Shown: positions 4,919 to 56,025 of the stretch, one piece after another
Position numbering within the stretch: the first letter of the stretch is position 1
Layout of the letters: each line of letters starts with the position of its first letter
DNA from: an uncultured virus (IMG/VR IMGVR_UViG_3300044846_004358)
Taxonomy: Duplodnaviria > Heunggongvirae > Uroviricota > Caudoviricetes
Length of the DNA: 64,000 nt
Reading direction: 5' to 3' (one strand)
Virus record (IMG/VR): IMGVR_UViG_3300044846_004358
The notes under the pieces: model-generated
Seen by the model: only the letters and a program-made list of their open reading frames with translations
What the model was told of the DNA's origin: nothing
The model's database searches: none
Translations under genes and position numbers: made by a program

Positions 4919-5899
4919 ATGAAAACAATTATTAGATTAACAGAAAATGATTTATACAAAATTGTTAAGAGAGTAATCTCAGAACAAGTAAGTGATGAAA
5001 ACAAAGCAGGAAATTACCTTAAAAATAGTGTCCCATATTCTTTCAAAGGTCTATTTCCAATAAGACCAGATGTACAAAGTGCAACAATAACCTTCGATAG
5101 AACCCTTGGTAACATACCATCACCTCAAATTACCAAACAACCTATCAATGTTGCAGGTATTGAAAATGGTGTTCATTTTTTTATTAAAGATGAATCAGAA
5201 AGTCTGAAGTCTTATTTGAACTCCGTTTTGACTATGAACCTAAATAGTCTTGCAGGAAAACTAACAATAAATGGACAACCTTTAGACCAAGGGAGACCAG
5301 TTGACGAACCAAATGTAGGACCTACTTTTTACACAATTAGTAATGAGTTTAATAAATTGATTGGTGACCTTTCTTCAGGATTAGGTTTGTCAGGAAATCT
5401 GAACCCAAACAACGTTATGACATTTGTTAATTCAGTACCATCTATGACTAGAGATGAATTAAATAATATTATGAGAGCTGTAGAAAGTTTCAGAAAAGCA
5501 TTCGGAAACTTCAAGACTGAGTTTGAAAAAAAGGGTGTTCAAGGACTTGATTTAGGTAAATTTTCTAACGTTGAAAAATATGGTCAAGCTTACTTTGGTG
5601 ATAAAATGCAAGTGTATCTAACATTACAAGTTGATGATACAGGTGATGACCAATTGGATTCTAAATATGAAACATTCCGTGATATGATTGGACAACAATA
5701 TTTGGAATTTGTAAAAAATGGAATAAAACAGAATAACATTTTTATACCTTCTTTAGAATCATTGTTTAAGGCGAGTCCAAGAATTAAAAACGAAATTGAT
5801 AAAGGCGGTATTGGGGGAATGAACAAACTAAATCCTAAAATAAGTAAACTTGTTGTTGTGGTTTATTCACCAAATCCTGGAGGTGTAGAACTTGCTTAA
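4919..5899 (+). CDS. Hypothetical protein with class-A leader (MKTIIRLTENDLYKIVKRVISE)
   Basis: 326-aa ORF; leader shared with 8 other genes. Confidence 0.8.
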   Translation: MKTIIRLTENDLYKIVKRVISEQVSDENKAGNYLKNSVPYSFKGLFPIRPDVQSATITFDRTLGNIPSPQITKQPINVAGIENGVHFFIKDESESLKSYLNSVLTMNLNSLAGKLTINGQPLDQGRPVDEPNVGPTFYTISNEFNKLIGDLSSGLGLSGNLNPNNVMTFVNSVPSMTRDELNNIMRAVESFRKAFGNFKTEFEKKGVQGLDLGKFSNVEKYGQAYFGDKMQVYLTLQVDDTGDDQLDSKYETFRDMIGQQYLEFVKNGIKQNNIFIPSLESLFKASPRIKNEIDKGGIGGMNKLNPKISKLVVVVYSPNPGGVELA

Positions 5900-5904
5900 A
5901 ATAT

Positions 5905-5932
5905 AAAAACACTACTTACGTAGTGTTTTTTT
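5905..5932. terminator. Bidirectional intrinsic terminator
   Basis: AAAAACACTAC-TTAC-GTAGTGTTTTT between convergent genes. Confidence 0.85.
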
Positions 5933-6655
5933 TTACCATTCCTTGTCTTGGAAGTCTGTGTAGTAAACCTTATTAGTGTAGTTAAATGAAAACTTTTCAT
6001 TCTTGATTAGAGTTTTACAATAGTCTTTGTTTGGAAGTGATTTAGATAAGTAACTCATAAATGTTCTATCAATCCAAGCGGCTAATACATCATCCTTGTC
6101 ATTACTATTGATATTCATCTTTTCTTCTGAGGATAGTGAATTGAACCAAGTCATAGCTAATGTGTAACTTTTATCAGTTATTCTATCAAAGTGAACTTCA
6201 ACAGACTCAACTAATCTACCATTGTAAATCAACTCCACTCTAAAATCATACTTTGTTTTGTACTCAACAATACTATCAACGTAGAAAATAGAAAAAGGAA
6301 TGTAATTCAAAGAATAATTTACCTTTTGATTCAAGTCAATTTTTAATCTTGTGGTATTGAAAGAAATGAAACTAGGTTTTGAATGATTGTCAATTGAAAA
6401 AACAGAATTAACCTCAGTTACATATTTTTGGGCATCAACAAACATAATATCATCACCATCGAAGTAATGTTTGTTTTTATTAACATCATTACCTTCAGCA
6501 ATGTACAATTTGTTAGTTCTTATGATACCATTAGTAACATCAGAAATTGTGTCAATTGATTTAGATGGTAATGTTAAATCACCTACCATCATTGTAACTT
6601 GACAAAAAATAGATGTGGAAACCAAAAATGAAAGGAATAAAATACTTGTTCTCAT
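5933..6655 (-). CDS. Putative secreted hypothetical protein
   Basis: Signal-peptide-like N-terminus MRTSILFLSFLVSTSIFC-Q. Confidence 0.7.
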   Translation of the reverse strand: MRTSILFLSFLVSTSIFCQVTMMVGDLTLPSKSIDTISDVTNGIIRTNKLYIAEGNDVNKNKHYFDGDDIMFVDAQKYVTEVNSVFSIDNHSKPSFISFNTTRLKIDLNQKVNYSLNYIPFSIFYVDSIVEYKTKYDFRVELIYNGRLVESVEVHFDRITDKSYTLAMTWFNSLSSEEKMNINSNDKDDVLAAWIDRTFMSYLSKSLPNKDYCKTLIKNEKFSFNYTNKVYYTDFQDKEW

Positions 6656-6733
6656 AATCTCATCGTTTTTTTTTACAAGATAAACATATTTATTATAAAA
6701 TAATAGAAAATAAAAAAAATTAAAAAATAAATT

Positions 6734-7111
6734 ATGAGAAGAACTGTAAGATTAACTGAAAGTGATTTAGTTAAATTAGTAAAAAGAGTAATCAGTGAAC
6801 AAGCAACAAGTTGTATGGAACCATTACAATCTCATTTAGAGGGTATGATGAACTTAGGTCCTAATTTCAAAGAAGGCCAAAAGAAACCATATAGAGATTT
6901 GCTTATTCAAAATTGTAGTGCTCTTGAAAGTTACATAAAAAGTAACCCTAATGTACAATTTGGTACAGAAACATTAAAAGCAAATAAGACAGCATTTGCA
7001 TGTGTAACTTCTGTTAATTTTGGCAACAAAGAAGAGGATAAAGATATGGCTGTTGCTTTAGCTAAAGTTGGGGCTTTTGTAAATTGTGTAAAAGGTTCTG
7101 GTGGTAAATAA
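6734..7111 (+). CDS. Hypothetical protein with class-A leader (MRRTVRLTESDLVKLVKRVISE)
   Basis: ORF with leader; TATTTAT at 6687-6693. Confidence 0.8.
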   Translation: MRRTVRLTESDLVKLVKRVISEQATSCMEPLQSHLEGMMNLGPNFKEGQKKPYRDLLIQNCSALESYIKSNPNVQFGTETLKANKTAFACVTSVNFGNKEEDKDMAVALAKVGAFVNCVKGSGGK

Positions 7112-7131
7112 AAAAAAAGGATAATTATTAT

Positions 7132-8606: not shown

Positions 8607-8909
8607 CTAATCCTCAAAATATTTTACATATTTTTTTATTGTTTGTCTTCTTTTTTTGTCGTCCACATCCGCAAATACATCAACAAGTAAATTATCAATT
8701 TTATCAATCAACTTTTTAAAGTTACCTCTTACAGGAACTGACTTGTCATCAACTAAAATCCTATATTTACCAAAGTATTCCTGAAATTCTGTTGGAACTT
8801 CATTGACTGGAAAATTTCTCCTCAAATAAACTAAAACTTTATCGTCAGCTTCTGTGTATTTGGCAAGTATATCCTCTTTTTCTTCTTCTGTAAGTACTAT
8901 TCTTTTCAT
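8607..8909 (-). CDS. Hypothetical protein with class-B leader (MKRIVLTEEEKEDILAKY)
   Basis: Start moved to ATG 8909, which follows the TATTTAT motif at 8916-8922. Confidence 0.75.
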   Translation of the reverse strand: MKRIVLTEEEKEDILAKYTEADDKVLVYLRRNFPVNEVPTEFQEYFGKYRILVDDKSVPVRGNFKKLIDKIDNLLVDVFADVDDKKRRQTIKKYVKYFED

Positions 8910-11480: not shown

Positions 11481-12317
11481 ATGTCAAGAAGAATGATAAT
11501 CTCAGAAAATGAGAAAAATAGAATCAAAAGTTTGTATAAAATAATTGAACAAGAAATAAATCCTTTAGATATTATTTTTAAAACCGCAATGAAAAAACTA
11601 GATGATTATAGAAGTGGTAAAATTTCACCTGATGCCGATAATAAAGATACCGAATCAGATACTGAAATCGATGATAAAACTACTCCGTATAAATCAAGTG
11701 GTAAAGGCGATTTTTATGACATAACAAAAAAGGTTATTGAAAATTTTGAAGGCGGTTATTGGAATCCTGAATGTGCTGGTTATCCAGGTTCAAAACATCC
11801 TCGTAAAACAGGAATGTATAGTAGGTCAGGTGAAACAATGTTCGGATTGGATAGAGAAGCAGGTAAGATTGAAGATATATCCTCAGATGGAAAAAAATTC
11901 TTTCAGTTGATTGATGACCAAAAAGAAAAGATGGGTATGGATAATTTTTGTAAAAAATGGACTTGGAATTATAGGGGTGGTGAAATTAAAAATCAATTAC
12001 TTGATTTAGCAGTAAAAACTATGAAAAGTTTGTTTGATAAAAATTCAAAAAATTATTTATCTGAAAAAGCAAGAAATATTGTAAATAATAGTAATCCATT
12101 ATTATTACACTTCTCATACGCCACGTGGAATGGTCCTGGTTTCTTCAAAGATTTTGCAAAAAGTATTAATAAAGGTGTTGATGAAGGCAAATCAGAGAAG
12201 GAATTAGTCAAAATCGCTAAAAACGATAGAGACAGAAGATTAGGTGGTGGTGCATGGGCTAAAGCAAACGAAAAGGTAAAAGCTCTCATTGATAAAGAAG
12301 CCTCAGGTATAGTATAA
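11481..12317 (+). CDS. Class-B leader protein with lysozyme-like (GH108-like) domain
   Basis: VIENFEGGYWNP...SGETMFGLDR; N-terminal ~50 aa similar to the upstream gene (PLDIIF.TA..KL). Confidence 0.55.
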   Translation: MSRRMIISENEKNRIKSLYKIIEQEINPLDIIFKTAMKKLDDYRSGKISPDADNKDTESDTEIDDKTTPYKSSGKGDFYDITKKVIENFEGGYWNPECAGYPGSKHPRKTGMYSRSGETMFGLDREAGKIEDISSDGKKFFQLIDDQKEKMGMDNFCKKWTWNYRGGEIKNQLLDLAVKTMKSLFDKNSKNYLSEKARNIVNNSNPLLLHFSYATWNGPGFFKDFAKSINKGVDEGKSEKELVKIAKNDRDRRLGGGAWAKANEKVKALIDKEASGIV

Positions 12318-13949: not shown

Positions 13950-14408
13950 TTAAACTGGATAAACTGCGTTGATTTGGAGTTGGTAAGTTTTTTCAAACCA
14001 AGCTTTCAACATTTTTTCGAAAAGTTCTTTACCAAAAGCACCTGAAACATTCTTAAGTTCCCAAGCATGATATTCTAAATTGTAATCGTCTGAATTGTCT
14101 ACTGGTAATACTTTAAACACATATTCATCGTCTTCCCAATCTATTTCAGGGTCAACATAATAAACATATGCTTGGTATATATCATAAGTCTTAAAATCTT
14201 CATACTCCCTCTGAACTTCAATTAGATTTTCATACTTCTCCATCATAGAATCAAACAAGTTTTTTAATCTTTCTTCCTTGTTTTCATTAACAAACTTTAA
14301 CTTATTTGTAATTCTAAATTCATTTTTATTAAGTTGATGATGAAGTTCCCAGTTATGAATTGAGTTATTGTATTCTTCCAATAATATTTTTTTAATTATC
14401 TTTTTCAT
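13950..14408 (-). CDS. Hypothetical protein with class-C leader (MKKIIKKILLEE)
   Basis: 152-aa ORF. Confidence 0.75.
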   Translation of the reverse strand: MKKIIKKILLEEYNNSIHNWELHHQLNKNEFRITNKLKFVNENKEERLKNLFDSMMEKYENLIEVQREYEDFKTYDIYQAYVYYVDPEIDWEDDEYVFKVLPVDNSDDYNLEYHAWELKNVSGAFGKELFEKMLKAWFEKTYQLQINAVYPV

Positions 14409-14411
14409 CTA

Positions 14412-15098
14412 TTAGGATATAAATAAATTGTATTCTTGTTCTCTTCTATTTGCTAATCCCTCTGTTGTACCAATATAAAAAGTTTTCACAAGTTCAGCAG
14501 CTTTTTTTGTATTACCTTTTTTTAGTTCTTGTATAAATCTAGATTTTCTCATACTTGTACATCCAGCATTGAATGTCATTGAAACCATAGCATCAAATTG
14601 TCCTTGAGTTAATTTATAAGTTTTTAAATCATTTTTTTTCCATTCATCCATTATTCGTCTGATACAACCAATAGCATCGCCAGAATCTTGAACCAAAAAA
14701 TCTTCAGCTTGTTTTTTGGTTATTTTCATACCAACCCTAACACCATCGGTATGACCATATCCAATCGTTGGTATTCCCCTTGAGTCAAGATATCCTACCA
14801 ACTTAGGTTGTTTTACCCCACCAATTCTATTTGCTGCGTCACCCTCCCATTCTCTAACTATTTTTTTGTAATCATTTGTTATATTCATAACAGAACCATC
14901 CATCAATTGTTTCCCACTAATTTTCTGTGGTTCAGGATTGGCAATACCTTTTGGTTTTACCTTTTTTGTTGTTTCTATTTTTTTCTGAGAAGGTCTTTGA
15001 ATCCCCACCATTTTATATGGGTCAGTTATATTTCCAATCGTTTTATTTACTTGTTGTAAAATATTATCGTATTGTTGTTCAGTAATTATAATTTTCAT
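14412..15098 (-). CDS. GH24 phage lysozyme with class-D leader (MKIIITEQQ)
   Basis: WEG...YLDSRGIPTIGYGHT, QGQFDAMVSMTFNAG, GLANRREQE. Confidence 0.88.
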   Translation of the reverse strand: MKIIITEQQYDNILQQVNKTIGNITDPYKMVGIQRPSQKKIETTKKVKPKGIANPEPQKISGKQLMDGSVMNITNDYKKIVREWEGDAANRIGGVKQPKLVGYLDSRGIPTIGYGHTDGVRVGMKITKKQAEDFLVQDSGDAIGCIRRIMDEWKKNDLKTYKLTQGQFDAMVSMTFNAGCTSMRKSRFIQELKKGNTKKAAELVKTFYIGTTEGLANRREQEYNLFIS

Positions 15099-16678: not shown

Positions 16679-17128
16679 TTACCTATAATAAAATTTATTT
16701 TGTATGAATTGTTCAATTATATCCCAATTATCTGAGTAATAATCTTCGTTGGAAATATACGATGGCTCAAACTCATAATCATAATCTCTACCATCGTGAA
16801 ATTCTTGCATACTTCCTGTCAATTCAAACATTTCACCATTATCTAATTCCTTTGTGAATGTGACATCATCACCATCAAATTCAACATTACCATAAAACTT
16901 TTGTTCAAAATGAACTTGGATTGGGAAACTCTTACTGAAAATATTTTTTAATTCATTATGTAATTGAACTTTGATAGCATTTTCTCTTTTGAAACTTTCC
17001 TCACCAGGAAGAATAATCTCAAGCATCTTGCCTGTGAAGTAAACATCAACAATTTCATTCTTAAATGATTTCTTGACATATCTTATTACAGCATCTTCAA
17101 ATTGACTTTCAGTTATTATAATTTTCAT
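16679..17128 (-). CDS. Hypothetical protein with class-D leader (MKIIITESQ)
   Basis: ATGA overlap with the upstream gene. Confidence 0.75.
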   Translation of the reverse strand: MKIIITESQFEDAVIRYVKKSFKNEIVDVYFTGKMLEIILPGEESFKRENAIKVQLHNELKNIFSKSFPIQVHFEQKFYGNVEFDGDDVTFTKELDNGEMFELTGSMQEFHDGRDYDYEFEPSYISNEDYYSDNWDIIEQFIQNKFYYR

Positions 17129-19123: not shown

Positions 19124-20194
19124 TTACACAAAATTACTAGTACCTTGAGCCCCAAGTGATTGAGGAGATGGGCATACCTCACTATTTAACATTTTATCGA
19201 AATAATTTTTAGAATTATCAACCAAATAGTTCTCATTGGATTCTGATAATACAAAAACTTTAGCTTTATCCCAATATTTTTGTAAAATATTCAAAAATTC
19301 TGTTGTTAAATTTATGCAACCATATGATAAATCTAAATTTAAACCACCAGTGGATACCGCATTTATAAATTCCTTTTTTGCCTCAGGGTTTTTAACATCT
19401 CCCAAAAACTTTTTTGCCTTTTGTAATACTAATGTTCGTGGTTGTTCTAGGTAATAACCATGAATTGCTTGTGTGTATTGTTTGTTATTTTGAACCAAAT
19501 GTTTTATATTATTTATCTTTCCCGCATACGATGCGTCACTCGTAATCGTACCCATATCATAAACACCAGGAGAGGTAAACCTCTTGTTATTTCTATCTAT
19601 CCAATCATACACATAATCATGATTGTATTTTCTATTCTGACTTGTTTGGTCAACATATCCCTTACCATTAATCCATTTAAAACCCGCTTTGATAGCTGAC
19701 TCATCCCAAGATAACATAGCATTTGCTATATCCGTAGGGTTAGTGGGTTGTTTGTTTTTTCCTGAAATAATTACATCTTTCGCAATAAAATTACCATTCG
19801 GGTCAAACAGATATATCAATTGATTTAAAGTGTCAACTACAATCAAATTATAAGTTCTCATCAATGGTCTAATACAATTCAAAGCAATTTCACAAGAAAT
19901 TCTATCATTCTTTATTGTTTTATAATACATTTCAGCTCTTTTATTTATTAAATTATTAATATAATTCCAAATAGTTGTATCAACTGTAATCGATGGTAAA
20001 TTAAGTTGTTTTTTGTAAAAATCGTAAATATTTTCAATATCAACAATTTGTTTAGAGTCCTTATTAATATAAGGACAAAATTGTTTTTGTCTCTCTGATG
20101 ATTTTTTAATTTCAGGTTTTGATTCTTGTTCACTCAAAATACCATACAATAATTTGATTAAAACCTTTTCCTCCTCCGTAATTCTAACTTTCAT
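19124..20194 (-). CDS. Class-B leader protein with L,D-transpeptidase (YkuD)-like domain
   Basis: LIVVD...Q.IYLF, TSPGVY, AIHG, SYGCINL. Confidence 0.65.
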   Translation of the reverse strand: MKVRITEEEKVLIKLLYGILSEQESKPEIKKSSERQKQFCPYINKDSKQIVDIENIYDFYKKQLNLPSITVDTTIWNYINNLINKRAEMYYKTIKNDRISCEIALNCIRPLMRTYNLIVVDTLNQLIYLFDPNGNFIAKDVIISGKNKQPTNPTDIANAMLSWDESAIKAGFKWINGKGYVDQTSQNRKYNHDYVYDWIDRNNKRFTSPGVYDMGTITSDASYAGKINNIKHLVQNNKQYTQAIHGYYLEQPRTLVLQKAKKFLGDVKNPEAKKEFINAVSTGGLNLDLSYGCINLTTEFLNILQKYWDKAKVFVLSESNENYLVDNSKNYFDKMLNSEVCPSPQSLGAQGTSNFV

Positions 20195-20264: not shown

Positions 20265-20882
20265 TTAAACCAACCTTCTAATTATTTCTCGTATCTTGGC
20301 TTCAGATATATTTGTACCTCCACCATCCAACTTATCAGTAAAACCTTTCAACTTATCAAATGCTGGATGAGAAGATATTGGTTCTTTTTTTGCATCCTTC
20401 ATAACATCCCAAGTTGATGGCTTAATCTTCATATGGTTTTTAACCAAATATTTTATTTCATCAACATCAGTTCCTTCATAAGATTCAACCCAATCTCTAA
20501 ATTGTTCAACATATTTTTCTGATTTATCTTCATGTCCATATGCGGTAGGTTCTCCTGTCTTAGGATTAATTCCATAGGTATCCATTTTACCCAAATCATG
20601 AAATAATGCGGTCATTATCATATTGGGGTCATCAGGATAATGATGATACGCCCTCTTGATTACAACCAAAATATGTTTTAATGAATTACCCTCAGGATGC
20701 CATTTTGGATTCTGTTTTGCATCCCATTGTTTGAATAATAATTCTTTTAATTCTTGGGGTAAATCATCATATAATTCTCTATACGATTTTGGAAATTCTT
20801 TTTTGTTTTCTTCCATTTCATTTATTGTTTGTTTAACCAAACTTAATAAATCTCTTTCAGTTAGTCTAATTATTTTTTTCAT
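20265..20882 (-). CDS. HD-domain phosphohydrolase with class-A leader
   Basis: QNPKWHPEG..LKH, ALFHDLGK, GHE, NHM; resembles the HD domain of CCA-adding enzymes. Confidence 0.82.
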   Translation of the reverse strand: MKKIIRLTERDLLSLVKQTINEMEENKKEFPKSYRELYDDLPQELKELLFKQWDAKQNPKWHPEGNSLKHILVVIKRAYHHYPDDPNMIMTALFHDLGKMDTYGINPKTGEPTAYGHEDKSEKYVEQFRDWVESYEGTDVDEIKYLVKNHMKIKPSTWDVMKDAKKEPISSHPAFDKLKGFTDKLDGGGTNISEAKIREIIRRLV

Positions 20883-21499: not shown

Positions 21500-21934
21500 T
21501 TATAATAACCCCATTATCGATTTAATCTCCATCTTCAATTTATCAAAATCAGGCATCTTAAAATAACCCTGCCATACCAATGTCTTCCCATTCTCCATAT
21601 TCATTGTCGTACCCACTCCATTAATTAATTTCTTTGACAGTTCAACATTAGATGTGGGACTAGTAACAAACAAACGATATGTACTCTCATCATCAACAAT
21701 CTTAGGTCCAACCTTCAACTCTAATTCCCCACCATTCTTACCCTTATAATATAATTGATTGTTGACAAAAACCATCCCCAATTCCTTACCAATCTTTTCC
21801 ATATCAATCTTACCTTGAAAGGTGGGAACACCAGGAGGAGCTTGGTCAATATACAAATCAACATTCTGCTCAGAAATTATTCTATTTACCAATTTAATTA
21901 ATTCACCCTCTGTTAATCTTATAATTCTTTTCAT
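21500..21934 (-). CDS. Hypothetical protein with class-A leader
   Basis: MKRIIRLTEGELIKLVNRIISE; TATTTAT motif at 21949-21955. Confidence 0.8.
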   Translation of the reverse strand: MKRIIRLTEGELIKLVNRIISEQNVDLYIDQAPPGVPTFQGKIDMEKIGKELGMVFVNNQLYYKGKNGGELELKVGPKIVDDESTYRLFVTSPTSNVELSKKLINGVGTTMNMENGKTLVWQGYFKMPDFDKLKMEIKSIMGLL

Positions 21935-26045: not shown

Positions 26046-26498
26046 ATGAAACTAATAATAACTGAAGAACAATATAGATTACTGATTGAGAATGAAGATG
26101 GTAAGAATCTTATTGATTTAACATCATTTGAGAATTTGAAACCATCAGCTTTGGATGATATGTTTTTACATATTAATAAAAAGAAGGGTGGGAAGTATGA
26201 TGGATATTATATTGATGGGGATTTGGATTTATATGAAAGAGAGGCCGATGTTACCACTTTGGATTATTTGGTTAAGGTTGGTGGTAATCTTTATTTGGCA
26301 AATACAAAAATAGAATCTTTACCAAGATTGACTGAGGTTGGTGGTTTTTTGAATATAACAAAAACCAAAATAAAATCATTACCAAAGTTATCATCGGTTG
26401 GGGGTTATTTGGCTTTACTTTTTACTCCCCTCTCTAAGAAGATTAGTAAAGAAGAATTGGAGAAACAAATAAATGTTGGAAGAGAAATATATCTATGA
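26046..26498 (+). CDS. Class-D leader plus LRR-like repeat protein 1
   Basis: MKLIITEEQY; ~21-aa repeats LPRLTEVGGFLNITKTKIKS; TATTTAT at 26019-26025. Confidence 0.8.
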   Translation: MKLIITEEQYRLLIENEDGKNLIDLTSFENLKPSALDDMFLHINKKKGGKYDGYYIDGDLDLYEREADVTTLDYLVKVGGNLYLANTKIESLPRLTEVGGFLNITKTKIKSLPKLSSVGGYLALLFTPLSKKISKEELEKQINVGREIYL

Positions 26499-27088
26499 AA
26501 CTAATAATAACTGAAGAACAATATAGATTAATCATTGAGAATGAAAATGGTGGTAAGTTATTTACTATACCAACTGAATTAATAAAGGATGAAGAAGGTA
26601 TTGATAAACTATTCACATTATATCATAAAACTAAATCTAAAAAAGGTTGGGTTGGTATAAAGATTTTGGGTGACTTGAACTTGAGAATAATGAACTTTGA
26701 CGATACTTTTCACTTATTTAGTTTATTACCTGAAATTGTTTATGTTAAGGGAAATATTTTATTACCTGAATATGATTTTGATTTCGATTTTAATAAATTG
26801 GAATATGTTGGTGGTAGTTTTAGAGGTCATTTGACAGGTGAAGTGTTATTACCAAAATTAAAAAAGGTTATGGGGTTTTTATCGTTATCTGTTAGTAATC
26901 TTACATCATTACCCGAACTAGAATATGTTGGAGGTGGTTTGAATTTGAGGCAAACACAGATAAGTGAATTACCAAAATTAAAATATGTTGGTGAGGCAAT
27001 GAGCTTGATGGGGACACCCTTTGCTAAGAAAACAAATAGAGAGGAACTAAGAAATAAAATACAAGTAGGAGGAAATATATTATTATGA
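26495..27088 (+). CDS. Class-D leader plus LRR-like repeat protein 2
   Basis: LPELEYVGGGLNLRQTQISE-type repeats. Confidence 0.82.
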   Translation: MKLIITEEQYRLIIENENGGKLFTIPTELIKDEEGIDKLFTLYHKTKSKKGWVGIKILGDLNLRIMNFDDTFHLFSLLPEIVYVKGNILLPEYDFDFDFNKLEYVGGSFRGHLTGEVLLPKLKKVMGFLSLSVSNLTSLPELEYVGGGLNLRQTQISELPKLKYVGEAMSLMGTPFAKKTNREELRNKIQVGGNILL

Positions 27089-27735
27089 AACTAATAATAA
27101 CTGAAGAACAATTAAGATTGATTATTGAAAGTGAGGGTGATGGTAAATTATTTAATGTGCCTAATGCTTTTTTACAAACAATAGGTGGTGTAACTAAGAC
27201 CTTAAATCTTTATAACAAATTAAAAGATGTTAAAGGATTTGATGGAATTAAGGTTATTGGTAAATTGGATTATTATGAGATTGACGCTGATGATAATGAT
27301 GACTTGGATAATTTCACCAATGAGGTTGTTTATATTGATGGAACTTTAATTTTGGCTGAAGAAAATCCTGATAATAATTTCGGTAAATTGAAAGTTATTG
27401 ATGGTAATTTGAGAGGTTCTGAGGTTGATAATATTTCATTCCCCAATTTGGAATATGTAACTGGTGATGTTAGTTTGGAAGATAGTGGTATTAGTGAATT
27501 ACCGAAACTGAAAGAGGTTGATGGTTGTTTATATTTACAAAGAACAGGTATTCATTCATTACCAGAATTGAAATCTGTTGGATTACATTTGAATCTTTAT
27601 AACACAATTATTAAGGATTTACCTAAGTTAGAAATTGTTCAGGGTGTATTGACATTGAGACATACACCTTTAGCTGATAAAAAAAATGAAGAGAAACTAA
27701 GAAAAATACAAGTAGGAGGACATCTTAATTTATGA
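27085..27735 (+). CDS. Class-D leader plus LRR-like repeat protein 3
   Basis: LPKLKEVDGCLYLQRTGIHS-type repeats. Confidence 0.82.
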   Translation: MKLIITEEQLRLIIESEGDGKLFNVPNAFLQTIGGVTKTLNLYNKLKDVKGFDGIKVIGKLDYYEIDADDNDDLDNFTNEVVYIDGTLILAEENPDNNFGKLKVIDGNLRGSEVDNISFPNLEYVTGDVSLEDSGISELPKLKEVDGCLYLQRTGIHSLPELKSVGLHLNLYNTIIKDLPKLEIVQGVLTLRHTPLADKKNEEKLRKIQVGGHLNL

Positions 27736-28304
27736 AAATAATAATAACAGAAGAACAATATAGATTATTGATTGAGGGTGAGGGTAGATTACTTCCTGTA
27801 CCTGAAGATATGTGGAATCAAGATGGTGGTATTACAAAGATTTATAGTTTATTTGACAAGACCAAGGACACTAAGAATTGGGTTGGTATAAAGGTAATTG
27901 GTGATTTGAGTTTAACATATGAGGATGACGAACATCTTAAAGATTTCTGTGAATACTTAGTTGAGGTTACAGGTGATTTTGAAATGTCAAACAGAAAAAG
28001 ATTTGAATTTCCTTTATTAATTAAAGTTGATGGTGATGTTAATATTGCGAACTCGGATATTGATTTTCCAAAATTGAGATATGTTGGGGGTGATTTTAGA
28101 GGAAGAGGAAGTGATACTGAGGAACTACCTGAATTGGAATATGTTGGTGGGTCATTATCATTAAGAGAAACTTTTATTCAGGATTTGCCAAAATTGAAAT
28201 ATGTTGGTGATGTATTGAATATTATGGATTCATCCCTCTCTAAGAAAACTACTGAGAAAGAATTAAGAAGTAAAATAAATGTTGAAGGAAACATATGGTT
28301 ATGA
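27732..28304 (+). CDS. Class-D leader plus LRR-like repeat protein 4
   Basis: LPELEYVGGSLSLRETFIQD-type repeats. Confidence 0.82.
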   Translation: MKIIITEEQYRLLIEGEGRLLPVPEDMWNQDGGITKIYSLFDKTKDTKNWVGIKVIGDLSLTYEDDEHLKDFCEYLVEVTGDFEMSNRKRFEFPLLIKVDGDVNIANSDIDFPKLRYVGGDFRGRGSDTEELPELEYVGGSLSLRETFIQDLPKLKYVGDVLNIMDSSLSKKTTEKELRSKINVEGNIWL

Positions 28305-28699
28305 AGTTAATAATTACAGAATCTCAATATAAGGAACTTAATAAGATTGATGATATCTATGATGGTTTAGACCCATATTATCGTAGGAGGATTGATTATA
28401 TTGATATAAAGGACGATATTGATATGAGGATTGGATTTAGGCAAGTTTTTCCTTCTCAAAGGGAAGCTTTGCACGGGCGTATGAATGTTCTTAAGAAAAG
28501 TCCTCGTGGTATTGATGGACATATCGATGATATAATTCATAATGTTGTTTGGAGTACAATACCTGATGAGTGGGGTGGAAGTGAAGATGAAAGATTATTT
28601 GATTATGTTAATGAAATGACAGATAGAGTTAAAAAGAAATATCGTGGTTATATAATGGGTAAATTACTTAAAATGCTTGAAGATGAGGATAATAATTAA
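28301..28699 (+). CDS. Class-D leader hypothetical protein (paralog pair 1a)
   Basis: ESQYKELNKIDDIYDGLDPYYRRRI...NVVWSTIPDE, shared with the next gene. Confidence 0.78.
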   Translation: MKLIITESQYKELNKIDDIYDGLDPYYRRRIDYIDIKDDIDMRIGFRQVFPSQREALHGRMNVLKKSPRGIDGHIDDIIHNVVWSTIPDEWGGSEDERLFDYVNEMTDRVKKKYRGYIMGKLLKMLEDEDNN

Positions 28700-29027
28700 T
28701 GAATCTCAATATGACGAACTAAATAAGATTGATGATGTCTATGATGGATTGAAACCTTATTTTAGGAGGAGAATTAAATATATTAATATTCCTGAGGCAA
28801 TTGATAGGGTAATTAAAAATATTGACAGATTTTATGATAAGACCGCGACATTTCATTATTTAGTTACAAGGGTTATTAGTAATGTCGTATGGGAAACTAT
28901 ACCTGATGAAATGGGTGCAAATACTAATATGGAATTATTTGAATATCACGATACAATGGCCGCCAACATAATGGACAAGTATGGTGAATACATTAAAAGA
29001 TTGGTTAGAAAAAGAATGGATAAATGA
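28683..29027 (+). CDS. Class-D leader hypothetical protein (paralog pair 1b)
   Basis: ESQYDELNKIDDVYDGLKPYFRRRI...NVVWETIPDE. Confidence 0.78.
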   Translation: MRIIINESQYDELNKIDDVYDGLKPYFRRRIKYINIPEAIDRVIKNIDRFYDKTATFHYLVTRVISNVVWETIPDEMGANTNMELFEYHDTMAANIMDKYGEYIKRLVRKRMDK

Positions 29028-34840: not shown

Positions 34841-36744
34841 TTTGCTTGTGGTAATAATTTCTTTCCGTGTTTAATCAATTCTTTTTTCACATATTCTTTT
34901 TCCTCAATTGAACTGAATAATTCTTCTCTTTCATCCGCCCATTCATCGATAATATCATCCATTTTCATTTTCCTTGTTTTTGCCTGAGTATAAAAACCTT
35001 GTAAATAAGCATCCTTTTCTTTTGGTGTTAATACTTCTTCGGCAAATGTATCGGTGGGTATTTCTTCGACCTTTTTATATGGATTCTCAGATTGATATAA
35101 ATGTTCTATTTCGTGTCTTAATACATCTTTTAACTCAGCAAACAATTTATTGAGATTCTCCATCTTGAAATTCGTATCAATATAAATCTGTAAATTAACA
35201 ACATCTATGCTATCTTCATCGTCCCACTTTTGTTCAGCATGAATATCATATGGTGTGCGTATATCTTCAGTTATAGCTGTAAGCCTCACAGTAAAAGTAG
35301 TTGTTGAATACTGTTCTTCCTCCTCTTCGTCATCATATTCTTCATCATCCATAAAATCTTCATAGTCGAATTCTTCTTGGAAATATTCTTCCTCCCATTC
35401 AAGTTCTGTTGATTCTTCATCCCTGATGAAATCCATTAACTCTCTTTTTATATCTCTCCAAATCTGTAATATGGTTTGACTATATCTTCCTTCAGTCAAA
35501 ACATCCTTGGATATTCCCATCATTTCGTGTATTCTATTTATTTGTTCGTTCAAATTTGAATTCTTCAAATTTTTGGATGTCCTAACAAATTCATAAACAT
35601 CATCACAAATTTTAATATTTTTTAAATTTTTGATTGGATAGAGGTCTCTTTTATTTTCAAAGGTTGTGAAATATTCAATATAATTTTCAACATCATAATA
35701 TGAAATACAACCTAATTCCATTCTTTTCAATAACCAACTCAATTTTTCATAATTTGGATACAATTTTACCATTTTTTCAAACAATCCGTAATCCACTATT
35801 GAGGGAGCATAAATACTTTCTAATTCATCTATTTTTGCTTGTGTTATGTTTTCAGTCCAAGCCAATCTTTCCTCCTCTTCTTTTTTTCTTTCCTCCTCTT
35901 CTTTTTTTCTTTTTTCCAATTCTTTTTCCTCTTCTTTTTTCGATAACTTTTCAAGAAAATTATTTTGAGCTTTTGGTGCTAAATCTCTTGCTATTTTCAT
36001 TAGTTGTTCACAAGTATCTGAAAATTCATCGAATTTATTATTTTTGTTTTTACACTCTGAGTCATAAAAGGGGCTAATTTGTATGGGAGTTTCAGGATTA
36101 TTTTTTTGATGGAAAACAACAAGATAATCTTTATTTATGTAGTCTACAAATTTTCGTTTATTTGTTAATGTACAAAATCTAACATAATTATTCCTATTAC
36201 GATTTTCACAATCCCCCAATATATTCTTGTATGCTTTGTACATAGGTTCATACATGTATTCGTACTCAAGATTATAGTCAAGATGAGGAATTACAAAAAC
36301 TTGATATCCACTATGGACACCCATATATTCAATAAAATTTTCATTTAGTTTTTTGATATCAGAAAAATTTATAAAATGTTCATCTTCAAATGAAATTTTA
36401 TCAATTAATTCATTTGATATTGAAATAAAATTTTTGACATCTGAACAAGTTTTTATCTGACCTAAATCTTTTATTGGAAAATTTTTTTTATGTTTATCGA
36501 AAATTTTGAAATATTCCACAAAATCAGGTATTTTATTATACGAAATACAATTTGATTCTAATTTTTTCAAAATCCATATGAATTGTTGGTATTCCTTGAA
36601 TGTATTTTTCAATTCGTCAAATTTTTCTGACGTAACTATTTTTTTTTCATCGACATATTTGTACCGAACCTCATTAGGATTATATACTTCAGTAAGAAGT
36701 CCCATCATTTCGTGTATTCTATTTATTTGTTCTTGTAGTTTCAT
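34831..36744 (-). CDS. Multi-module protein with two class-F leaders, an internally duplicated domain and a C-terminal HExxH module
   Basis: EQINRIHEMMG at the N-terminus and internally; two W.LK..E..CISY...EYF..F...PIK.L..IK.C.DV repeats; LRHEIEHLYQ. Confidence 0.8.
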   Translation of the reverse strand: MKLQEQINRIHEMMGLLTEVYNPNEVRYKYVDEKKIVTSEKFDELKNTFKEYQQFIWILKKLESNCISYNKIPDFVEYFKIFDKHKKNFPIKDLGQIKTCSDVKNFISISNELIDKISFEDEHFINFSDIKKLNENFIEYMGVHSGYQVFVIPHLDYNLEYEYMYEPMYKAYKNILGDCENRNRNNYVRFCTLTNKRKFVDYINKDYLVVFHQKNNPETPIQISPFYDSECKNKNNKFDEFSDTCEQLMKIARDLAPKAQNNFLEKLSKKEEEKELEKRKKEEEERKKEEEERLAWTENITQAKIDELESIYAPSIVDYGLFEKMVKLYPNYEKLSWLLKRMELGCISYYDVENYIEYFTTFENKRDLYPIKNLKNIKICDDVYEFVRTSKNLKNSNLNEQINRIHEMMGISKDVLTEGRYSQTILQIWRDIKRELMDFIRDEESTELEWEEEYFQEEFDYEDFMDDEEYDDEEEEEQYSTTTFTVRLTAITEDIRTPYDIHAEQKWDDEDSIDVVNLQIYIDTNFKMENLNKLFAELKDVLRHEIEHLYQSENPYKKVEEIPTDTFAEEVLTPKEKDAYLQGFYTQAKTRKMKMDDIIDEWADEREELFSSIEEKEYVKKELIKHGKKLLPQAKWR

Positions 36745-40883: not shown

Positions 40884-41180
40884 ATGAAAAAGATAGTAAG
40901 ATTGACTGAAAGAGATTTAACTAGATTGGTTAAAAGAGTAATCAAAGAGGATGAAGAATCTATGAAGAGTTATAAAAAAATGTTAAGTAAAATTGAATCA
41001 GATTTGGATAAAGATGAATCAGATTTGGATGAAATTCAAAATAAACTTTATGATTTTGATAACTTAATTTGGGATGAAGATACCTTAGATGAGGATGAAA
41101 AAGAAAAATTATCATATTATATTGGTGAGTTACTTAAAAGATGTGTGAAACCTAAAAATAAAGGATTTGGTAAATTTTAA
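40884..41180 (+). CDS. Acidic hypothetical protein with class-A leader
   Basis: MKKIVRLTERDLTRLVKRVIKE; TATTTAT at 40851-40857. Confidence 0.8.
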   Translation: MKKIVRLTERDLTRLVKRVIKEDEESMKSYKKMLSKIESDLDKDESDLDEIQNKLYDFDNLIWDEDTLDEDEKEKLSYYIGELLKRCVKPKNKGFGKF

Positions 41181-44122: not shown

Positions 44123-44773
44123 TTATCCGTATTTTTCTTCGTGGTAATCTAATATGGTTTGGATTACTTTTTCTTCATCTTTTTGATTCATATTATGAAT
44201 CTCACGATTGTCTTTGAACCACTTTCTAACAACATCTTCAAATGGAGTTTGTTGTAGTTTTGACACTCTTCTAAATCCTTGTATTTGTGCCCCCAATTCT
44301 TCAGGTGACATATAATATTTCTTACCTTTTTTTTCTTTCTTTTTTCTAGTTAAATTGAATTCCCCGTGATACTCTTGTAATCCGTGTTCCAATTCGTGAG
44401 CAATAAGATTGTTTAATTCTTCTATAATCTCATATAATTGTCCTTCCAATTTATTTGGATTAACTATTATTTTTACTTCAACAACATCATCTTCCAAACT
44501 ATAACTTCCATTTGTCATAAACCTCAAAGTATTAGGATTGAATACTAAATGTAATTCAACACTAAATTGAACTGGGTAGTTATTAAATGAATAAAAATCT
44601 TCATCGGGGTTCTCAGGTAATATAAAAGAACCTTCTTCACCTCTTTTTAATATCTTTATTATATCTCTTACAACTTCTCTTACAGCTTGTCTACTCATAC
44701 GAGCTTCAGTTATTGTTTCTAAACCCATATTTTTCAACATTTGGTTTACACTTTCATTTAAGTTCGTTCTCAT
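44123..44773 (-). CDS. Class-F-like leader protein with HExxH module
   Basis: MRTNLNESVNQMLKNMGLETITE; IAHELEHGLQ...EE..A.IQGF; paralogous to the C-terminal module of 34831..36744. Confidence 0.72.
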   Translation of the reverse strand: MRTNLNESVNQMLKNMGLETITEARMSRQAVREVVRDIIKILKRGEEGSFILPENPDEDFYSFNNYPVQFSVELHLVFNPNTLRFMTNGSYSLEDDVVEVKIIVNPNKLEGQLYEIIEELNNLIAHELEHGLQEYHGEFNLTRKKKEKKGKKYYMSPEELGAQIQGFRRVSKLQQTPFEDVVRKWFKDNREIHNMNQKDEEKVIQTILDYHEEKYG

Positions 44774-51618: not shown

Positions 51619-51673
51619 ATCGTGTAAGTTTGGTTCTTTCACAAATATAAAAAGAATTAGTTAAATTGGAAAT

Positions 51674-54664: not shown

Positions 54665-54701
54665 AATGGAAAATATAAGAAATAATCTTCATAAAAAAAA
54701 G

Positions 54702-54730
54702 AAACCCCACCTTTTTTTGAGATGGGGATT
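54702..54730. terminator. Intrinsic terminator (CCCCAC family)
   Basis: AAACCCCAC...ATGGGGATT. Confidence 0.65.
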
Positions 54731-54741
54731 TTTTCTTAAAC

Positions 54742-55191
54742 TTAAAAAGTCATAGTACCTAAAAAATTTTTATCGTTATCATACAAATTAACACTTTGTA
54801 GATTACCTGCACTCCATGCTCCTTTTACCCCTCCCCATTTCCAAACACCATTATAATATGGAACATTTTTTTTAGATACCCAATTTGCTAAATATTGTAA
54901 CTCAACCACAGGTCCGTTGTATTTGTCATCATTAGGCATTATAGTTGTTTCCATAACAACTTCATTCTTATCAGAAAAAAACCTAATGTTCCCATTTCTA
55001 GTATCATATTTCCAAGTTCCTTGGGGGCAATATCTATCCCAAGGGTCCGTTGGTTCTGGACATTCATTTTGTTTATTCATTGCCCATTTTTTAAAATCTT
55101 CTAAAGTTTTTCCACTTATTGATTGTTCGTTAATTACTCTTTTAATCAATCTAACTAAATCACTTTCAGTTAATCTTACTATCTTTTTCAT
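54742..55191 (-). CDS. Hypothetical protein with class-A leader
   Basis: Start moved to MKKIVRLTESDLVRLIKRVINE. Confidence 0.8.
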   Translation of the reverse strand: MKKIVRLTESDLVRLIKRVINEQSISGKTLEDFKKWAMNKQNECPEPTDPWDRYCPQGTWKYDTRNGNIRFFSDKNEVVMETTIMPNDDKYNGPVVELQYLANWVSKKNVPYYNGVWKWGGVKGAWSAGNLQSVNLYDNDKNFLGTMTF

Positions 55192-55586
55192 CGTTTTTTT
55201 TTCAATTTTATTAATATTAATCCGTTTTTCAAATATTTTTCCATCCACATTTTTTGGATTCTATTTTCGTTGAAGAATGGCCAAGAAATATTATTGCTGT
55301 CATCTATGAACGTATGTACTTTTCTAATTAATGTCATGTCCCTATCGTCTTCATTAAGTTTTATTATATCAACATTTTCATTATTAAAGAATTTAAAGGC
55401 ATCTTCAATTTCAGGATAATCTGACAATTTTACTTTTTCATCATTTTCATTAAACATTGTATTCGGACCATACCAATCTGGAATATAATAAAAATACTCG
55501 TATTCATTCATATTTCTTTTTTCATTAATAACTCTTTTAACCAATCTAACTAAATCACTTTCAGTTAATCTTACTATCTTTTTCAT
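55188..55586 (-). CDS. Hypothetical protein with class-A leader
   Basis: MKKIVRLTESDLVRLVKRVINE. Confidence 0.8.
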   Translation of the reverse strand: MKKIVRLTESDLVRLVKRVINEKRNMNEYEYFYYIPDWYGPNTMFNENDEKVKLSDYPEIEDAFKFFNNENVDIIKLNEDDRDMTLIRKVHTFIDDSNNISWPFFNENRIQKMWMEKYLKNGLILIKLKKKR

Positions 55587-56025
55587 CTTTTTTTATTTGT
55601 TTTTCTATTTCAGAATATATCAGTTTAATCATTTTAAAATAAAATTCATCTGTTTTATTTTGGTCTGTCATATTGTTAATTATGTTATATAATATATTTG
55701 CATAATAATCTTTTTCAATAAATTCATACGTTATATCATCAATGGCTGAATCAATCCGCCTATATTTTTTTTCTTTCATTACAGAATGTACTTTTTTTAC
55801 CCACCACTTGAAGTCACCTTCTTTAACTATTTTATCTAAAATTAAGTCCAAAACTTTGTCTTCCAAATCTAATGTTTCACCTAATTGTAATGCCGTTTCA
55901 AATTGTTCATTGTCAATTAATATCTTGAATTTTTCAAGATATTCTTCGTTTTCATCTTGTTCTTTAATTATCCTTTTAACCAAATTAGTTAAATCACTTT
56001 CTGTTAATCTTACTATCTTTTTCAT
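55561..56025 (-). CDS. Hypothetical protein with class-A leader
   Basis: MKKIVRLTESDLTNLVKRIIKE; TATTTAT motif at 56054-56060. Confidence 0.8.
   Translation of the reverse strand: MKKIVRLTESDLTNLVKRIIKEQDENEEYLEKFKILIDNEQFETALQLGETLDLEDKVLDLILDKIVKEGDFKWWVKKVHSVMKEKKYRRIDSAIDDITYEFIEKDYYANILYNIINNMTDQNKTDEFYFKMIKLIYSEIEKQIKKDEKDSKIN

What the first reader, a model, noticed from the sequence alone, without database searches (positions are those of the whole stretch)
4919..56025. About 40 unrelated proteins share interchangeable N-terminal leaders ending in [ILV]-x-E: a putative capsid-targeting cargo-tag system
Seen: five leader families, listed by start coordinate. A, MKKIVRLTESDLxxLVKRVIxE: 4919, 6734, 16095, 20882, 21934, 40884, 55191, 55586, 56025. 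B, MKxIxI[ST]EEEKxxIxxLY: 8909, 10173, 11481, 20194, variant 21422. C, MxLxxxI[KR]RIL[RK]EE: 14408, 32750, 33130, 33440, 34840, 37740. D, MKIIITExQ: 15098, 17128, 17568, 17868, 18181 and nine genes at 26046-30935. F, MNLQEQLNRIxEMMG: 31427, 31801, 36744, variant 44773. The sequences after the leader are unrelated: GH24 lysozyme, M15-like peptidase, L,D-transpeptidase-like, HD hydrolase, ParB/Srx-like, HExxH, LRR-like and orphans. Similarity often stops at a hydrophobic-x-Glu (VISE, VINE, IIKE, ILRE, LLTE, KINE). Established: T4 internal proteins carry a short N-terminal capsid-targeting sequence removed by prohead protease gp21, which cuts after Glu in [L/I]-x-E. Inference: these leaders tag a large, diverse protein library for loading into the head, protease maturation and injection into the next host. 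That would be an unusually large cargo system and a possible protein-delivery tool.
Basis: partly seen in the sequence, partly recalled or inferred. Interest (0 to 1): 0.92.

Follow-up and report, generated by a model that had tools for sequence, protein, structure and literature searches.

The report
Capsid-address leader tags, jumbo phage
A piece of an uncultured giant T4-type phage starts 38 mostly unrelated genes with a few swappable short peptides ending in the cutting motif of the T4-type head protease, so they are probably tags that load many different proteins into the virus head, though no experiment has tested this.

Summary
All 38 listed gene starts carry the leaders. Leader profiles give 37 hits in the 98-kb record and 0 on reversed sequence; 36 of the 37 sit at an ORF N-terminus. 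The bodies fall into 30 unrelated groups.

The window is part of a about 300-kb T4-type jumbo phage, probably of Bacteroidota. The fragment has no head genes. Of nine relatives at least 90% complete that carry leader A, eight encode a T4 gp21-type prohead protease.

Leader A is virus-specific and very common: 7,614 protein clusters carry it. Conservation stops sharply after an invariant I-x-E.

One conserved HD-domain enzyme carries leader A, C, F, another leader or none in different relatives. Its leaderless forms start exactly at the residue after that Glu.

Fused forms of leader-body-leader-body exist, one of them in the window.

Leader genes sit behind the same TATTTAT promoter-like motif as head and tail genes of a relative.

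The capsid protein of relatives has I-N-E|A at the site aligned with the RB69 gp23 propeptide end.

All of this fits an enlarged T4 capsid-targeting-sequence system. Packaging, cutting and injection are untested. Verdict: new variant of a known kind; confidence about 0.55.

The parts
4919..5899 (+). leader A gene, 326 aa, orphan body
   Evidence: i-E 6.9e-15; TATTTAT at 4895-4901
6734..7111 (+). leader A gene, 125 aa
15184..16095 (-). leader A gene, 303 aa
   Evidence: TATTTAT 16127-16133
20265..20882 (-). leader A gene, 205 aa, HD-domain body; orthologues elsewhere carry leader A, C, F, another leader or none
   Evidence: Pfam HD
21500..21934 (-). leader A gene, 144 aa
   Evidence: TATTTAT 21949-21955
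40884..41180 (+). leader A gene, 98 aa
   Evidence: TATTTAT 40851-40857
54742..55191 (-). leader A gene, 149 aa from the ATG at 55191
55188..55586 (-). leader A gene, 132 aa
55561..56025 (-). leader A gene, 154 aa
   Evidence: TATTTAT 56055-56061
8607..8909 (-). leader B gene, 100 aa
10173..11468 (+). leader B gene, 431 aa, GTG start; weak VanY/M15-like hint
11481..12317 (+). leader B gene, 278 aa; N-terminal body segment related to 10173
19124..20194 (-). leader B gene, 356 aa
20886..21422 (-). weak B variant, 178 aa
   Evidence: i-E 0.25 only
13950..14408 (-). weak C-like leader gene, 152 aa
   Evidence: i-E 0.013
31803..32750 (-). leader C gene, 315 aa
32747..33130 (-). leader C gene, 127 aa
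33123..33440 (-). leader C gene, 105 aa
33437..34840 (-). leader C gene, 467 aa
36748..37740 (-). leader C gene, 330 aa; first gene of the C/F array, TATTTAT at 37746-37752
14412..15098 (-). leader D gene, 228 aa, GH24 lysozyme body behind a linker of about 90 aa
   Evidence: Pfam Phage_lysozyme 5.4e-26
16679..17128 (-). leader D gene, 149 aa
17125..17568 (-). leader D gene, 147 aa
17581..17868 (-). leader D gene, 95 aa
17858..18181 (-). leader D gene, 107 aa; TATTTAT 18187-18193
26046..30935 (+). array of nine leader D genes (starts 26046, 26495, 27085, 27732, 28301, 28683, 29024, 29596, 30369); 3 paralogue groups, some LRR-like; one TATTTAT at 26019-26025 heads the array
   Evidence: Recep_L_domain
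30936..31427 (-). leader F gene, 163 aa
31424..31801 (-). leader F gene, 125 aa
34831..36744 (-). leader F gene, 637 aa: a leader-body-leader-body fusion
35515..35559 (-). internal, Met-less F-leader copy at about residue 397 of the 637-aa protein
   Evidence: i-E 3.6e-8. From this copy to the C-terminus the protein aligns with the whole free-standing 216-aa protein at 44123-44773, E 6e-12
44123..44773 (-). F-variant leader gene, 216 aa, HExxH body

Best explanation
The leaders are capsid-targeting propeptides of the T4 kind, expanded into several families.

Shown:
- The window belongs to a about 300-kb T4-type jumbo phage.
- Its relatives encode a gp21-type prohead protease, a gp23-type capsid protein and an acidic scaffold candidate.
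- 38 genes here start with one of a few swappable leaders that end in [ILV]-x-E.

Inferred:
- Late in infection the leader-bearing proteins are made together with the head proteins.
- The N-terminal strand-plus-helix leader docks them to the scaffolding core of the prohead.
- The prohead protease then cuts after the Glu, at I-T-E, L-T-E or I-S-E near residues 7-9 and/or I-x-E near residue 22.
- The mature bodies stay in the head with the DNA and probably enter the next host cell.
- Fused leader-body-leader-body proteins would be cut into separate cargo units.
For: (1) Phage type. G000 is a 98-kb virus record, 33% complete. A 556-aa protein of G000 is 55-60% identical to proteins in G001, G002, G004 and G005, which also carry 7-12 leader-A genes each. 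PF03420 (T4 gp21 protease family) was found in 8 of 9 leader-A records that are at least 90% complete, and in 10 of 14 large records overall. G005 has TerL, portal, protease and a gp23-type capsid protein in T4 order.

(2) Cut-site logic. gp21 cuts after Glu in L/I-X-E, and the T4 CTS is a short N-terminal propeptide on diverse internal proteins (PMC9026906, passages; PMC3012670, passages). In leader A the invariant residues are M1, L7, T8, E9, L12, I20 and E22. E22 is present in 71 of 71 and in 146 of 146, never Asp, while acidic position 11 varies (D131, E10, N5, Q2, K1). The capsid proteins of G001, G003 and G005 and of a Flavobacterium phage align an invariant E-A with the E66-A67 of RB69 gp23, which its record annotates as cleaved by gp21. 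In G001, G003 and G005 the site reads L-I-N-E|A; G002 and G004 show the same string. This matches the V-I-N-E end of leader A.

(3) Natural swap experiment. Of the 120 listed homologues of the HD body (66-95% identical), at least 9 carry leader A. Of the 94 that could be classified, 34 carry F, 25 carry C and about 14 carry none. The last [ILVM]-x-E lies exactly 13 residues before a body anchor in 31 of 34 F forms and 15 of 25 C forms, with 7 more C forms at 15. Leaderless forms begin with Met at the residue after that Glu.

(4) Selection acts on the peptide, not the DNA. Invariant residues use 2-3 synonymous codons, 35% of codon pairs encoding the same residue differ, and the upstream DNA is only 42% identical.

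(5) Timing. TATTTAT peaks at -30 to -11 before start codons. In G005 it precedes the protease, scaffold candidate, tail sheath, tube, fibre and adaptor genes. 12 of 14 structural genes lie in motif-headed units, against 7 of 18 DNA-metabolism genes (p=0.012). In G000, 33 of 35 leader genes lie in such units against 35 of 122 other genes (p=1e-12). In G005, 16 of 21 leader genes have their own motif against 59 of 324 others (p=5e-8).

(6) Virus-specific and portable. There are 7,614 clusters at E<=1e-3. 79 bodies from IMG/VR loci fall into 57 groups.

(7) Polyprotein forms. The 150 best clusters hold 43 internal copies, and only 8 of those have a Met. One such fusion is in the window. In G001 a D-like leader gene sits between the protease and the scaffold gene.
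Against: - No head, protease or scaffold gene lies on the window's own record. The link runs through relatives.
- One 93%-complete leader-A record (G012) gave no PF03420 match.
- The leaders are about twice as long as the 10-residue T4 CTS, and there are at least five families. One docking site would not need that.
- Internal Met-less copies show that a free N-terminus is not required.
- The promoter motif also precedes a DnaB-like and another helicase gene in G005. Its late timing is inferred, and its own-motif enrichment on structural genes is not significant (5 of 14 against 2 of 18).
- The similarity of leader A to the scaffold N-terminus is weak (hhalign P=0.066).
- [ILV]-x-E is a short motif, frequent in an AT-rich proteome.
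- No cultured relative carries the leader, so no virion proteome exists.
Confidence: 0.55

Rival explanations
1. The leaders are retained assembly or anchoring modules. A short strand-helix element fixes many different proteins to some virion part (capsid inner or outer surface, portal, tail) or to each other, without being cut off, and the proteins need not be injected cargo.
For: The whole 22-residue leader A is conserved, far more than a protease site needs. Internal and repeated copies work without a free N-terminus. Expression from the promoter-like motif shared with structural genes fits any virion component.
Against: Leaderless orthologues of the HD enzyme start exactly after the Glu, and three or more leader families are interchangeable on one body. 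This is easier to explain by a removable tag than by a structural anchor. The strict Glu, never Asp, at the boundary fits a P1 specificity.
Confidence: 0.12
2. The leaders act inside the infected cell. They could be a recognition tag for a phage-encoded chaperone or ATP-dependent protease, or a localisation or export signal, for example for the cell-wall enzymes.
For: The record encodes DnaK and DnaJ homologues, and G005 encodes a Lon-like ATP-dependent protease. Leader A is a basic, hydrophobic amphipathic stretch. One body is a lysozyme, which must reach the wall.
Against: No leader has a hydrophobic signal-peptide core, whereas other proteins of the same window have classical signal peptides. 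Most bodies are not wall enzymes. This reading does not explain the invariant [ILV]-x-E boundary, the match to the capsid protein's maturation site or the link with T4-type head genes.
Confidence: 0.15
3. The leaders have no function of their own as peptides. They are shared gene-start cassettes (promoter, ribosome site and first codons) spread by recombination, or a translation-initiation optimum of an AT-rich genome.
For: Many leader genes are stand-alone units with a terminator-like hairpin, the TATTTAT motif and then the leader. M-K-K-I starts are A-rich.
Against: Upstream DNA is only 42% identical while the peptide is 65% identical, with synonymous changes at invariant residues. Genes inside operons have the leader without the promoter. 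In-frame internal copies without a start codon are conserved.
Confidence: 0.06

Closest known systems
Capsid targeting sequence (CTS) of phage T4 internal proteins IPI, IPII, IPIII and the Alt propeptides, removed by prohead protease gp21
   Same: A short N-terminal tag on otherwise unrelated proteins. The tag ends in L/I-x-Glu. Relatives have a protease of the same family (PF03420) and a gp23-type capsid protein with the same kind of maturation site. The tag is portable.
   Different: - The leaders are 7 to about 23 residues long, in at least five families, against one 10-residue CTS.
- There are 38 tagged genes in 64 kb, against four in T4.
- Tagged bodies include enzymes of up to 637 aa and fused multi-unit proteins.
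- Internal copies exist.
- Similarity to the T4 CTS itself was not tested here.
- There is no experimental evidence.
Propeptides of head, inner-body and ejection proteins of phiKZ-like giant phages (phiKZ gp175, SPN3US gp245 proteases)
   Same: Giant phages in which dozens of head proteins are cut after Glu by a gp21-related protease, with a large protein mass packed with the DNA (PMC9026906 passages; PMC7411985 and PMC10052503 abstracts).
   Different: The motif there is S/A-x-E, not [ILV]-x-E. No shared, swappable leader families have been described there. The head genes here are T4-type.
Phage P1 Dar proteins loaded into the head through DarA/Hdf
   Same: Diverse anti-defence proteins are loaded into a myophage head and injected (PMC9024508 and PMC12810830, abstracts only).
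   Different: P1 is a different phage lineage, with no T4-type head module as in the relatives here. A common cleavable leader family is not known to me there (recalled, not checked).
Encapsulin cargo-loading peptides
   Same: A short portable peptide addresses unrelated cargo to the interior of an HK97-fold shell.
   Different: Those peptides are usually C-terminal, are not cleaved and serve a cellular compartment. This comparison is recalled and was not tested here.

Membership tests
T4-type CTS / internal-protein system | The phage encodes a gp21-family (Peptidase_S77) prohead protease | tested here: inconclusive
   Absent from the 98-kb, 33%-complete record of the window and from 5 near-identical fragments. 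Present in 8 of 9 leader-A records at least 90% complete.
T4-type CTS / internal-protein system | The tag sits at the N-terminus of the precursor | tested here: met
   36 of 37 profile hits in G000 and all 25 in G005 lie at ORF starts. However, there are 43 internal copies among the 150 best clusters.
T4-type CTS / internal-protein system | The tag ends in the protease motif L/I-x-Glu | tested here: met
   I20 and E22 are invariant in the window's 9 leader-A copies; E22 is present in 71 of 71 and 146 of 146. The boundary Glu lies at a fixed distance from the body in HD orthologues. The capsid protein site I-N-E|A aligns with the E-A of RB69 gp23.
T4-type CTS / internal-protein system | The same tag occurs on unrelated mature proteins | tested here: met
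   30 body groups among the window's 38 proteins. 57 groups among 79 IMG/VR leader-A proteins.
T4-type CTS / internal-protein system | Late expression together with head proteins | tested here: inconclusive
   Leader genes share a TATTTAT promoter-like motif with head and tail genes of G005. The timing itself was not measured.
T4-type CTS / internal-protein system | The tag is removed by the protease, and the protein is packaged and ejected | not testable with these tools
   No cultured relative and no proteome exist. The single structure-based binding job gave no verdict (see Tried and rejected).
T4-type CTS / internal-protein system | Sequence similarity to the T4 CTS | not tested
   The T4 ip genes were not fetched.
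phiKZ-type propeptides | Cleavage motif S/A-x-Glu | tested here: not met
   The residue two places before the Glu is I, L or V in the leaders. The phiKZ motif is taken from PMC9026906.
Known Pfam domain (for example ribbon-helix-helix, which the strand-helix leader resembles by eye) | Pfam profile match covering the leader | tested here: not met
   No family at E<=0.5 names a ribbon-helix-helix or other leader-specific domain in 35 leader proteins; the few weak matches (E 0.015-0.43, all under their cut-offs) that overlap leader residues go to unrelated families.
Sec or lipoprotein signal peptide | Hydrophobic core after a basic N-terminus | tested here: not met
   By inspection of the translations only: the leaders are charged throughout. 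No signal-peptide predictor was available.

The most novel reading that the evidence does not exclude
These leaders form a multi-address cargo code of a large, uncultured clade of T4-type jumbo phages. Several leader families would direct on the order of a hundred different proteins per phage into the head, including enzymes and protease-cut polyproteins. Address, copy number or place in the head would be set by the leader family. On this reading the injected effector set of thousands of unknown phages can be read from sequence: leader A alone marks 7,614 protein clusters.
Probability: 0.3. Interest if true: 0.85.

Novelty: new variant of a known kind. Interest (0 to 1): 0.64.

Why it matters
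If the reading is right, a simple sequence rule (leader family plus a boundary Glu) would identify the proteins that a large group of environmental giant phages deliver into their hosts ahead of gene expression. Such proteins are likely to include anti-defence and take-over functions.

It would also extend the T4 capsid-targeting idea from four proteins in one model phage to thousands of cargo families. The orthologues of one enzyme with different leaders or none offer ready-made controls. The leaders themselves are candidate parts for protein-packaging tools.

Three full-text searches of the held library found no paper describing these leaders: 'LTESDL' in 0 papers; all 21 papers holding 'capsid targeting sequence', 18 listed, judged by title and abstract; and a five-term search.

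Tried and rejected
- Complex prediction, scaffold candidate alignment against leader-A alignment of G005: after two full-queue refusals the job ran and returned 'no answer'. It gives no information either way.
- hhalign of leader A against the scaffold N-terminus picked the segment that looks similar by eye, but at P=0.066 it is not significant.
- tblastn of a leader-A protein, a 30-aa leader and the HD protein against 50,697 GenBank phage records found no match.
- The cultured Flavobacterium phage with the nearest annotated capsid protein has no leader A. So no published virion proteome could be brought in.
- megablast of 12 kb of the window against phages found no match.
- Relaxed Pfam on 35 leader proteins added only weak hints.
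- The tRNA scan and the Rfam scan of the window found nothing.
- Earlier-findings look-ups by place and by sequence found nothing.
- The search for related loci with the leader alignment on genome contigs failed for lack of a conserved enough stretch. A DNA pattern was used instead.
- Two T4 reviews were searched for the exact gp23 cut position and it was not found. The position in T4 is therefore recalled, not cited.
- Considered and rejected: a cellular origin of the window. Despite the two-component, TonB-receptor and T9SS-tail genes, the record is a virus contig related to complete T4-type phage genomes.

Full report
WHAT THE WINDOW IS

The window is bases 18484-82483 (reverse strand) of a 98,377-bp IMG/VR virus record, G000. 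It is linear and 33% complete by CheckV, which implies a genome of about 300 kb. GC is about 30%.

Pfam on 97 window proteins and 49 flank proteins found no head or tail gene. It did find many host-like genes:
- a PAS/GAF histidine kinase and a response regulator;
- a TonB-dependent receptor with a CarboxypepD_reg domain;
- a protein with a type IX secretion sorting tail;
- SmpB, FKBP, DnaK, DnaJ, thioredoxin and thymidylate synthase;
- three DNA methylases;
- several cell-wall hydrolases.

A Bacteroidota host is likely but not shown. The pointers are the TonB and T9SS genes, the single cellular match of the leader in a 3.3-kb contig of a Bacteroidetes MAG, and a capsid protein whose nearest cultured relatives include a Flavobacterium phage.

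THE OBSERVATION

All 38 listed starts are ORF starts with the stated peptides.

Profile HMMs built from the leaders were run over all six frames of G000. They gave 37 hits at i-E<=0.01 (A 9, B 5, C 5, D 14, F 4) and none on the reversed sequences. The training sequences match by construction. The relative G005, which contributed nothing to the profiles, gave 25 hits and 0 reversed.

36 of the 37 hits lie at an ORF N-terminus. Three listed 'variants' are weak: 14408, 21422 and 44773. More leader-like starts lie outside the window, at G000 11607, 86104-86631, 86977, 88953-89609 and 89958.

The 38 bodies form 30 BLASTP groups. The nine-gene D array consists of three paralogue groups.

Only GH24 lysozyme, HD and an LRR-like domain are confirmed by Pfam. 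M15/VanY and an HExxH peptidase are weak hints. L,D-transpeptidase and ParB/Srx were not seen.

The families are not fully separate. A, B and D share an M-K-x-I-[IV]..[ST]-E start, and C and F grade into each other.

THE LEADER IS SELECTED AS A PEPTIDE AND IS A DISCRETE MODULE

In the nine leader-A copies the invariant residues L7, T8, I20 and E22 use two or three synonymous codons. 35% of codon pairs that encode the same residue differ. The 69 bases upstream are only 42% identical, against 74% for the leader DNA and 65% for the peptide.

In the 79 loci kept there are 71 unique N-termini. Positions 10-23, which the search pattern did not fix, stay above about 2-4 bits. From position 24 on, information is below 1 bit. 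E22 is present in 71 of 71. Their 79 bodies fall into 57 groups.

A profile search of 1.84 billion representative proteins found 7,614 clusters at E<=1e-3 and 400 at E<=1e-10. In 149 unique leader strings from the best 150 clusters, position 22 is Glu in 146 of 146 and position 9 is Glu in 148 of 148. The acidic position 11 varies (D131, E10, N5, Q2, K1). This top list is biased towards the consensus.

The same DNA pattern matched 1 stretch in 596 Gb of prokaryote genomes and at least 130 stretches in IMG/VR. No GenBank phage record matched.

THE LINK TO A T4-TYPE HEAD

G000 itself has no PF03420 match, and neither do five near-identical fragments.

A 556-aa protein of G000 is 55-60% identical to proteins of four nearly complete 281-322-kb records: G001, G002, G004 and G005. 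Each of these carries 7-12 leader-A genes.

PF03420, the T4 gp21 protease family, is present in 10 of 14 large leader-A records and in 8 of the 9 that are at least 90% complete. The exception is G012, at 93%.

G005 was read whole. It has large terminase, portal, protease (phrog_207), a 495-aa acidic scaffold candidate (assigned by position and composition only) and a gp23-type capsid protein, in T4 order.

The capsid proteins of G001, G003 and G005 and of a Flavobacterium phage align an invariant Glu-Ala with E66-A67 of RB69 gp23. The RB69 record annotates gp23 as cleaved by gp21. In G001, G003 and G005 the site reads L-I-N-E|A; G002 and G004 show the same string at residue 60. That is the same I-N-E that ends several leader-A copies of the window. 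That T4 gp23 is cut at this position is recalled; I could not find it in the two reviews searched.

gp21 cuts after Glu in L/I-X-E. The first 10 residues of IPIII suffice for packaging, and an Asp at the cut position blocks processing (PMC9026906, passages read).

A NATURAL SWAP EXPERIMENT

The HD-domain body of the gene at 20265-20882 has 260 homologues at E<=1e-5. The 120 listed are 60-95% identical.

By N-terminus, at least 9 of the 120 carry leader A. A body anchor could be placed by my pattern in 96 of the 120; 24 could not be anchored. Two of the 96 had long N-terminal extensions and were set aside. Of the remaining 94, 34 carry an F-type leader, 25 a C-type, 12 other leaders, and 17 are short, of which about 14 have no leader at all. 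My automatic labels misfiled a few rows.

The last [ILVM]-x-E lies exactly 13 residues before the anchor in 31 of 34 F forms and 15 of 25 C forms. Seven more C forms have it at 15, because of a two-residue insertion in the body.

The leaderless forms begin with Met at the very residue that follows that Glu. The module boundary is therefore the bond after the Glu, whichever leader is attached. A cut there would produce just what the leaderless relatives encode.

FUSED FORMS

Among the 150 best leader-A clusters, 38 proteins have two or three copies. Of the 43 internal copies only 8 have a Met at the first position. The internal copies keep the core that ends in I-x-E and lose the M-K-K-I start.

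In the window, the 637-aa protein at 34831-36744 has a second, Met-less F leader at about residue 397. From that point to its C-terminus it aligns with the whole free-standing 216-aa protein at 44123-44773, leader included (E 6e-12).

A protease that cuts after the leader's Glu would split such proteins into units. Equally, these copies show that a free N-terminus is not needed for whatever the element does.

TIMING

TATTTAT is enriched at -30 to -11 before start codons in G000 and G005. It often follows a terminator-like hairpin.

In G005 it precedes the protease, scaffold candidate, tail sheath, tail tube, a tail fibre and an adaptor gene. It also precedes a DnaB-like and another helicase gene.

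Of the PHROG-annotated genes, 12 of 14 structural genes lie in motif-headed units against 7 of 18 DNA-metabolism genes (p=0.012). Counting only a gene's own motif, the figures are 5 of 14 against 2 of 18, which is not significant. Fourteen G005 genes that span locus joins, and genes under 100 aa, were not annotated.

Leader genes are strongly linked to the motif:
- G000: 33 of 35 in motif-headed units against 35 of 122 other genes (p=1e-12).
- G005: 16 of 21 with their own motif against 59 of 324 (p=5e-8).
- In the window, 15 of 38 have their own motif, and the D array and C/F array each hang behind one.

That this is a late promoter is an inference from the company it keeps.

VERDICT

The simplest account is an enlarged T4-type capsid-targeting system. 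Leader-tagged proteins are made with the head proteins, dock to the prohead core, lose the leader to the gp21-type protease after [ILV]-x-Glu, and stay in the head as cargo. I put this at about 0.55.

The steps shown are the anatomy, the portability, the exact boundary, the virus specificity and the T4-type head genes in relatives. Docking, cutting, packaging and injection are inferred.

Three points are left open by this account: why there are several leader families, why leader A is so much longer than a cut site needs, and what the internal copies do.

The rivals are a retained anchoring module, an intracellular recognition or export tag, and a recombination cassette. They are given in their own section with their evidence.

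The one structure-based binding job gave no verdict and counts for nothing.

PRIOR WORK AND NOVELTY

Earlier notes of this scan describe the same kind of leaders and polyproteins in other uncultured T4-type giant phages. They are unchecked AI notes, and one was later marked as partly fallen. I treat them as leads that agree with this report, not as support.

In the held paper library, 'LTESDL' occurs in no paper. None of the 18 listed papers (of 21) that hold 'capsid targeting sequence' describes such leader families, judging by their titles and abstracts. [quoted passage not shown]

The finding is therefore a new, much larger variant of a known kind.

Noticed in passing
window 688-3260, 41219-44047, 47210-48910, 52905-53333, 9278-9703: The phage record carries host-like genes that are unusual for a virus: a PAS/GAF histidine kinase with a response regulator, a TonB-dependent receptor, a protein with a type IX secretion sorting tail, SmpB and an FKBP isomerase.
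   Followed up: no
L001:1577-1756, L001:3357-4259, L002:1349-3277, L002:278-1108: Outside the window the same record encodes an Hc1 histone-like protein, DnaJ, a full-length DnaK (Hsp70) and a class II aminoacyl-tRNA-synthetase-like protein.
   Followed up: no
window, e.g. 4895-4901, 10153-10159, 15113-15119, 26019-26025, 37746-37752: The promoter-like motif TATTTAT lies 11-30 bases before many starts, often just after a GC-rich hairpin with a T run. In relative G005 it also precedes head and tail genes. G005 encodes a sigma-70-family factor (phrog_351, G005 201764-202579) that might read it.
   Followed up: partly
window 56946-58619: A 557-aa conserved protein with no Pfam match starts M-K-K-Q-L-I-K-E. 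Its G005 orthologue (224433-225851) has a full D-type leader in front of the same Q-L-I-K-E, so the window's copy looks like a leader shortened by eight residues.
   Followed up: partly
G000 88953-89609 (L002:6557-7210, minus strand): A 207-aa protein begins with a tandemly duplicated D-type leader, with the I-I-I-T-E core twice within 17 residues.
   Followed up: no
G005 64957-67734 and 74070-75845 (L090): The portal gene of relative G005 is 925 aa long and holds an HNH-endonuclease-like insert. A homing endonuclease gene follows the capsid gene.
   Followed up: no
L240:1605-2558 (G001): In relative G001 a 318-aa gene with a D-like leader sits inside the head module, between the protease region and the scaffold candidate.
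   Followed up: no
window 23560-26040: A stretch with only short, poorly supported ORFs between the two divergent gene blocks. No tRNA and no Rfam family were found there or anywhere else in the window.
   Followed up: partly
window 3335-4138, 13231-13863, 51088-51642: Three further cell-wall hydrolases lack leaders: a PG-binding plus GH19-like protein, and two glucosaminidases with signal-peptide-like starts. The leader-tagged GH24 lysozyme at 14412-15098 is therefore not the only candidate lysin.
   Followed up: no
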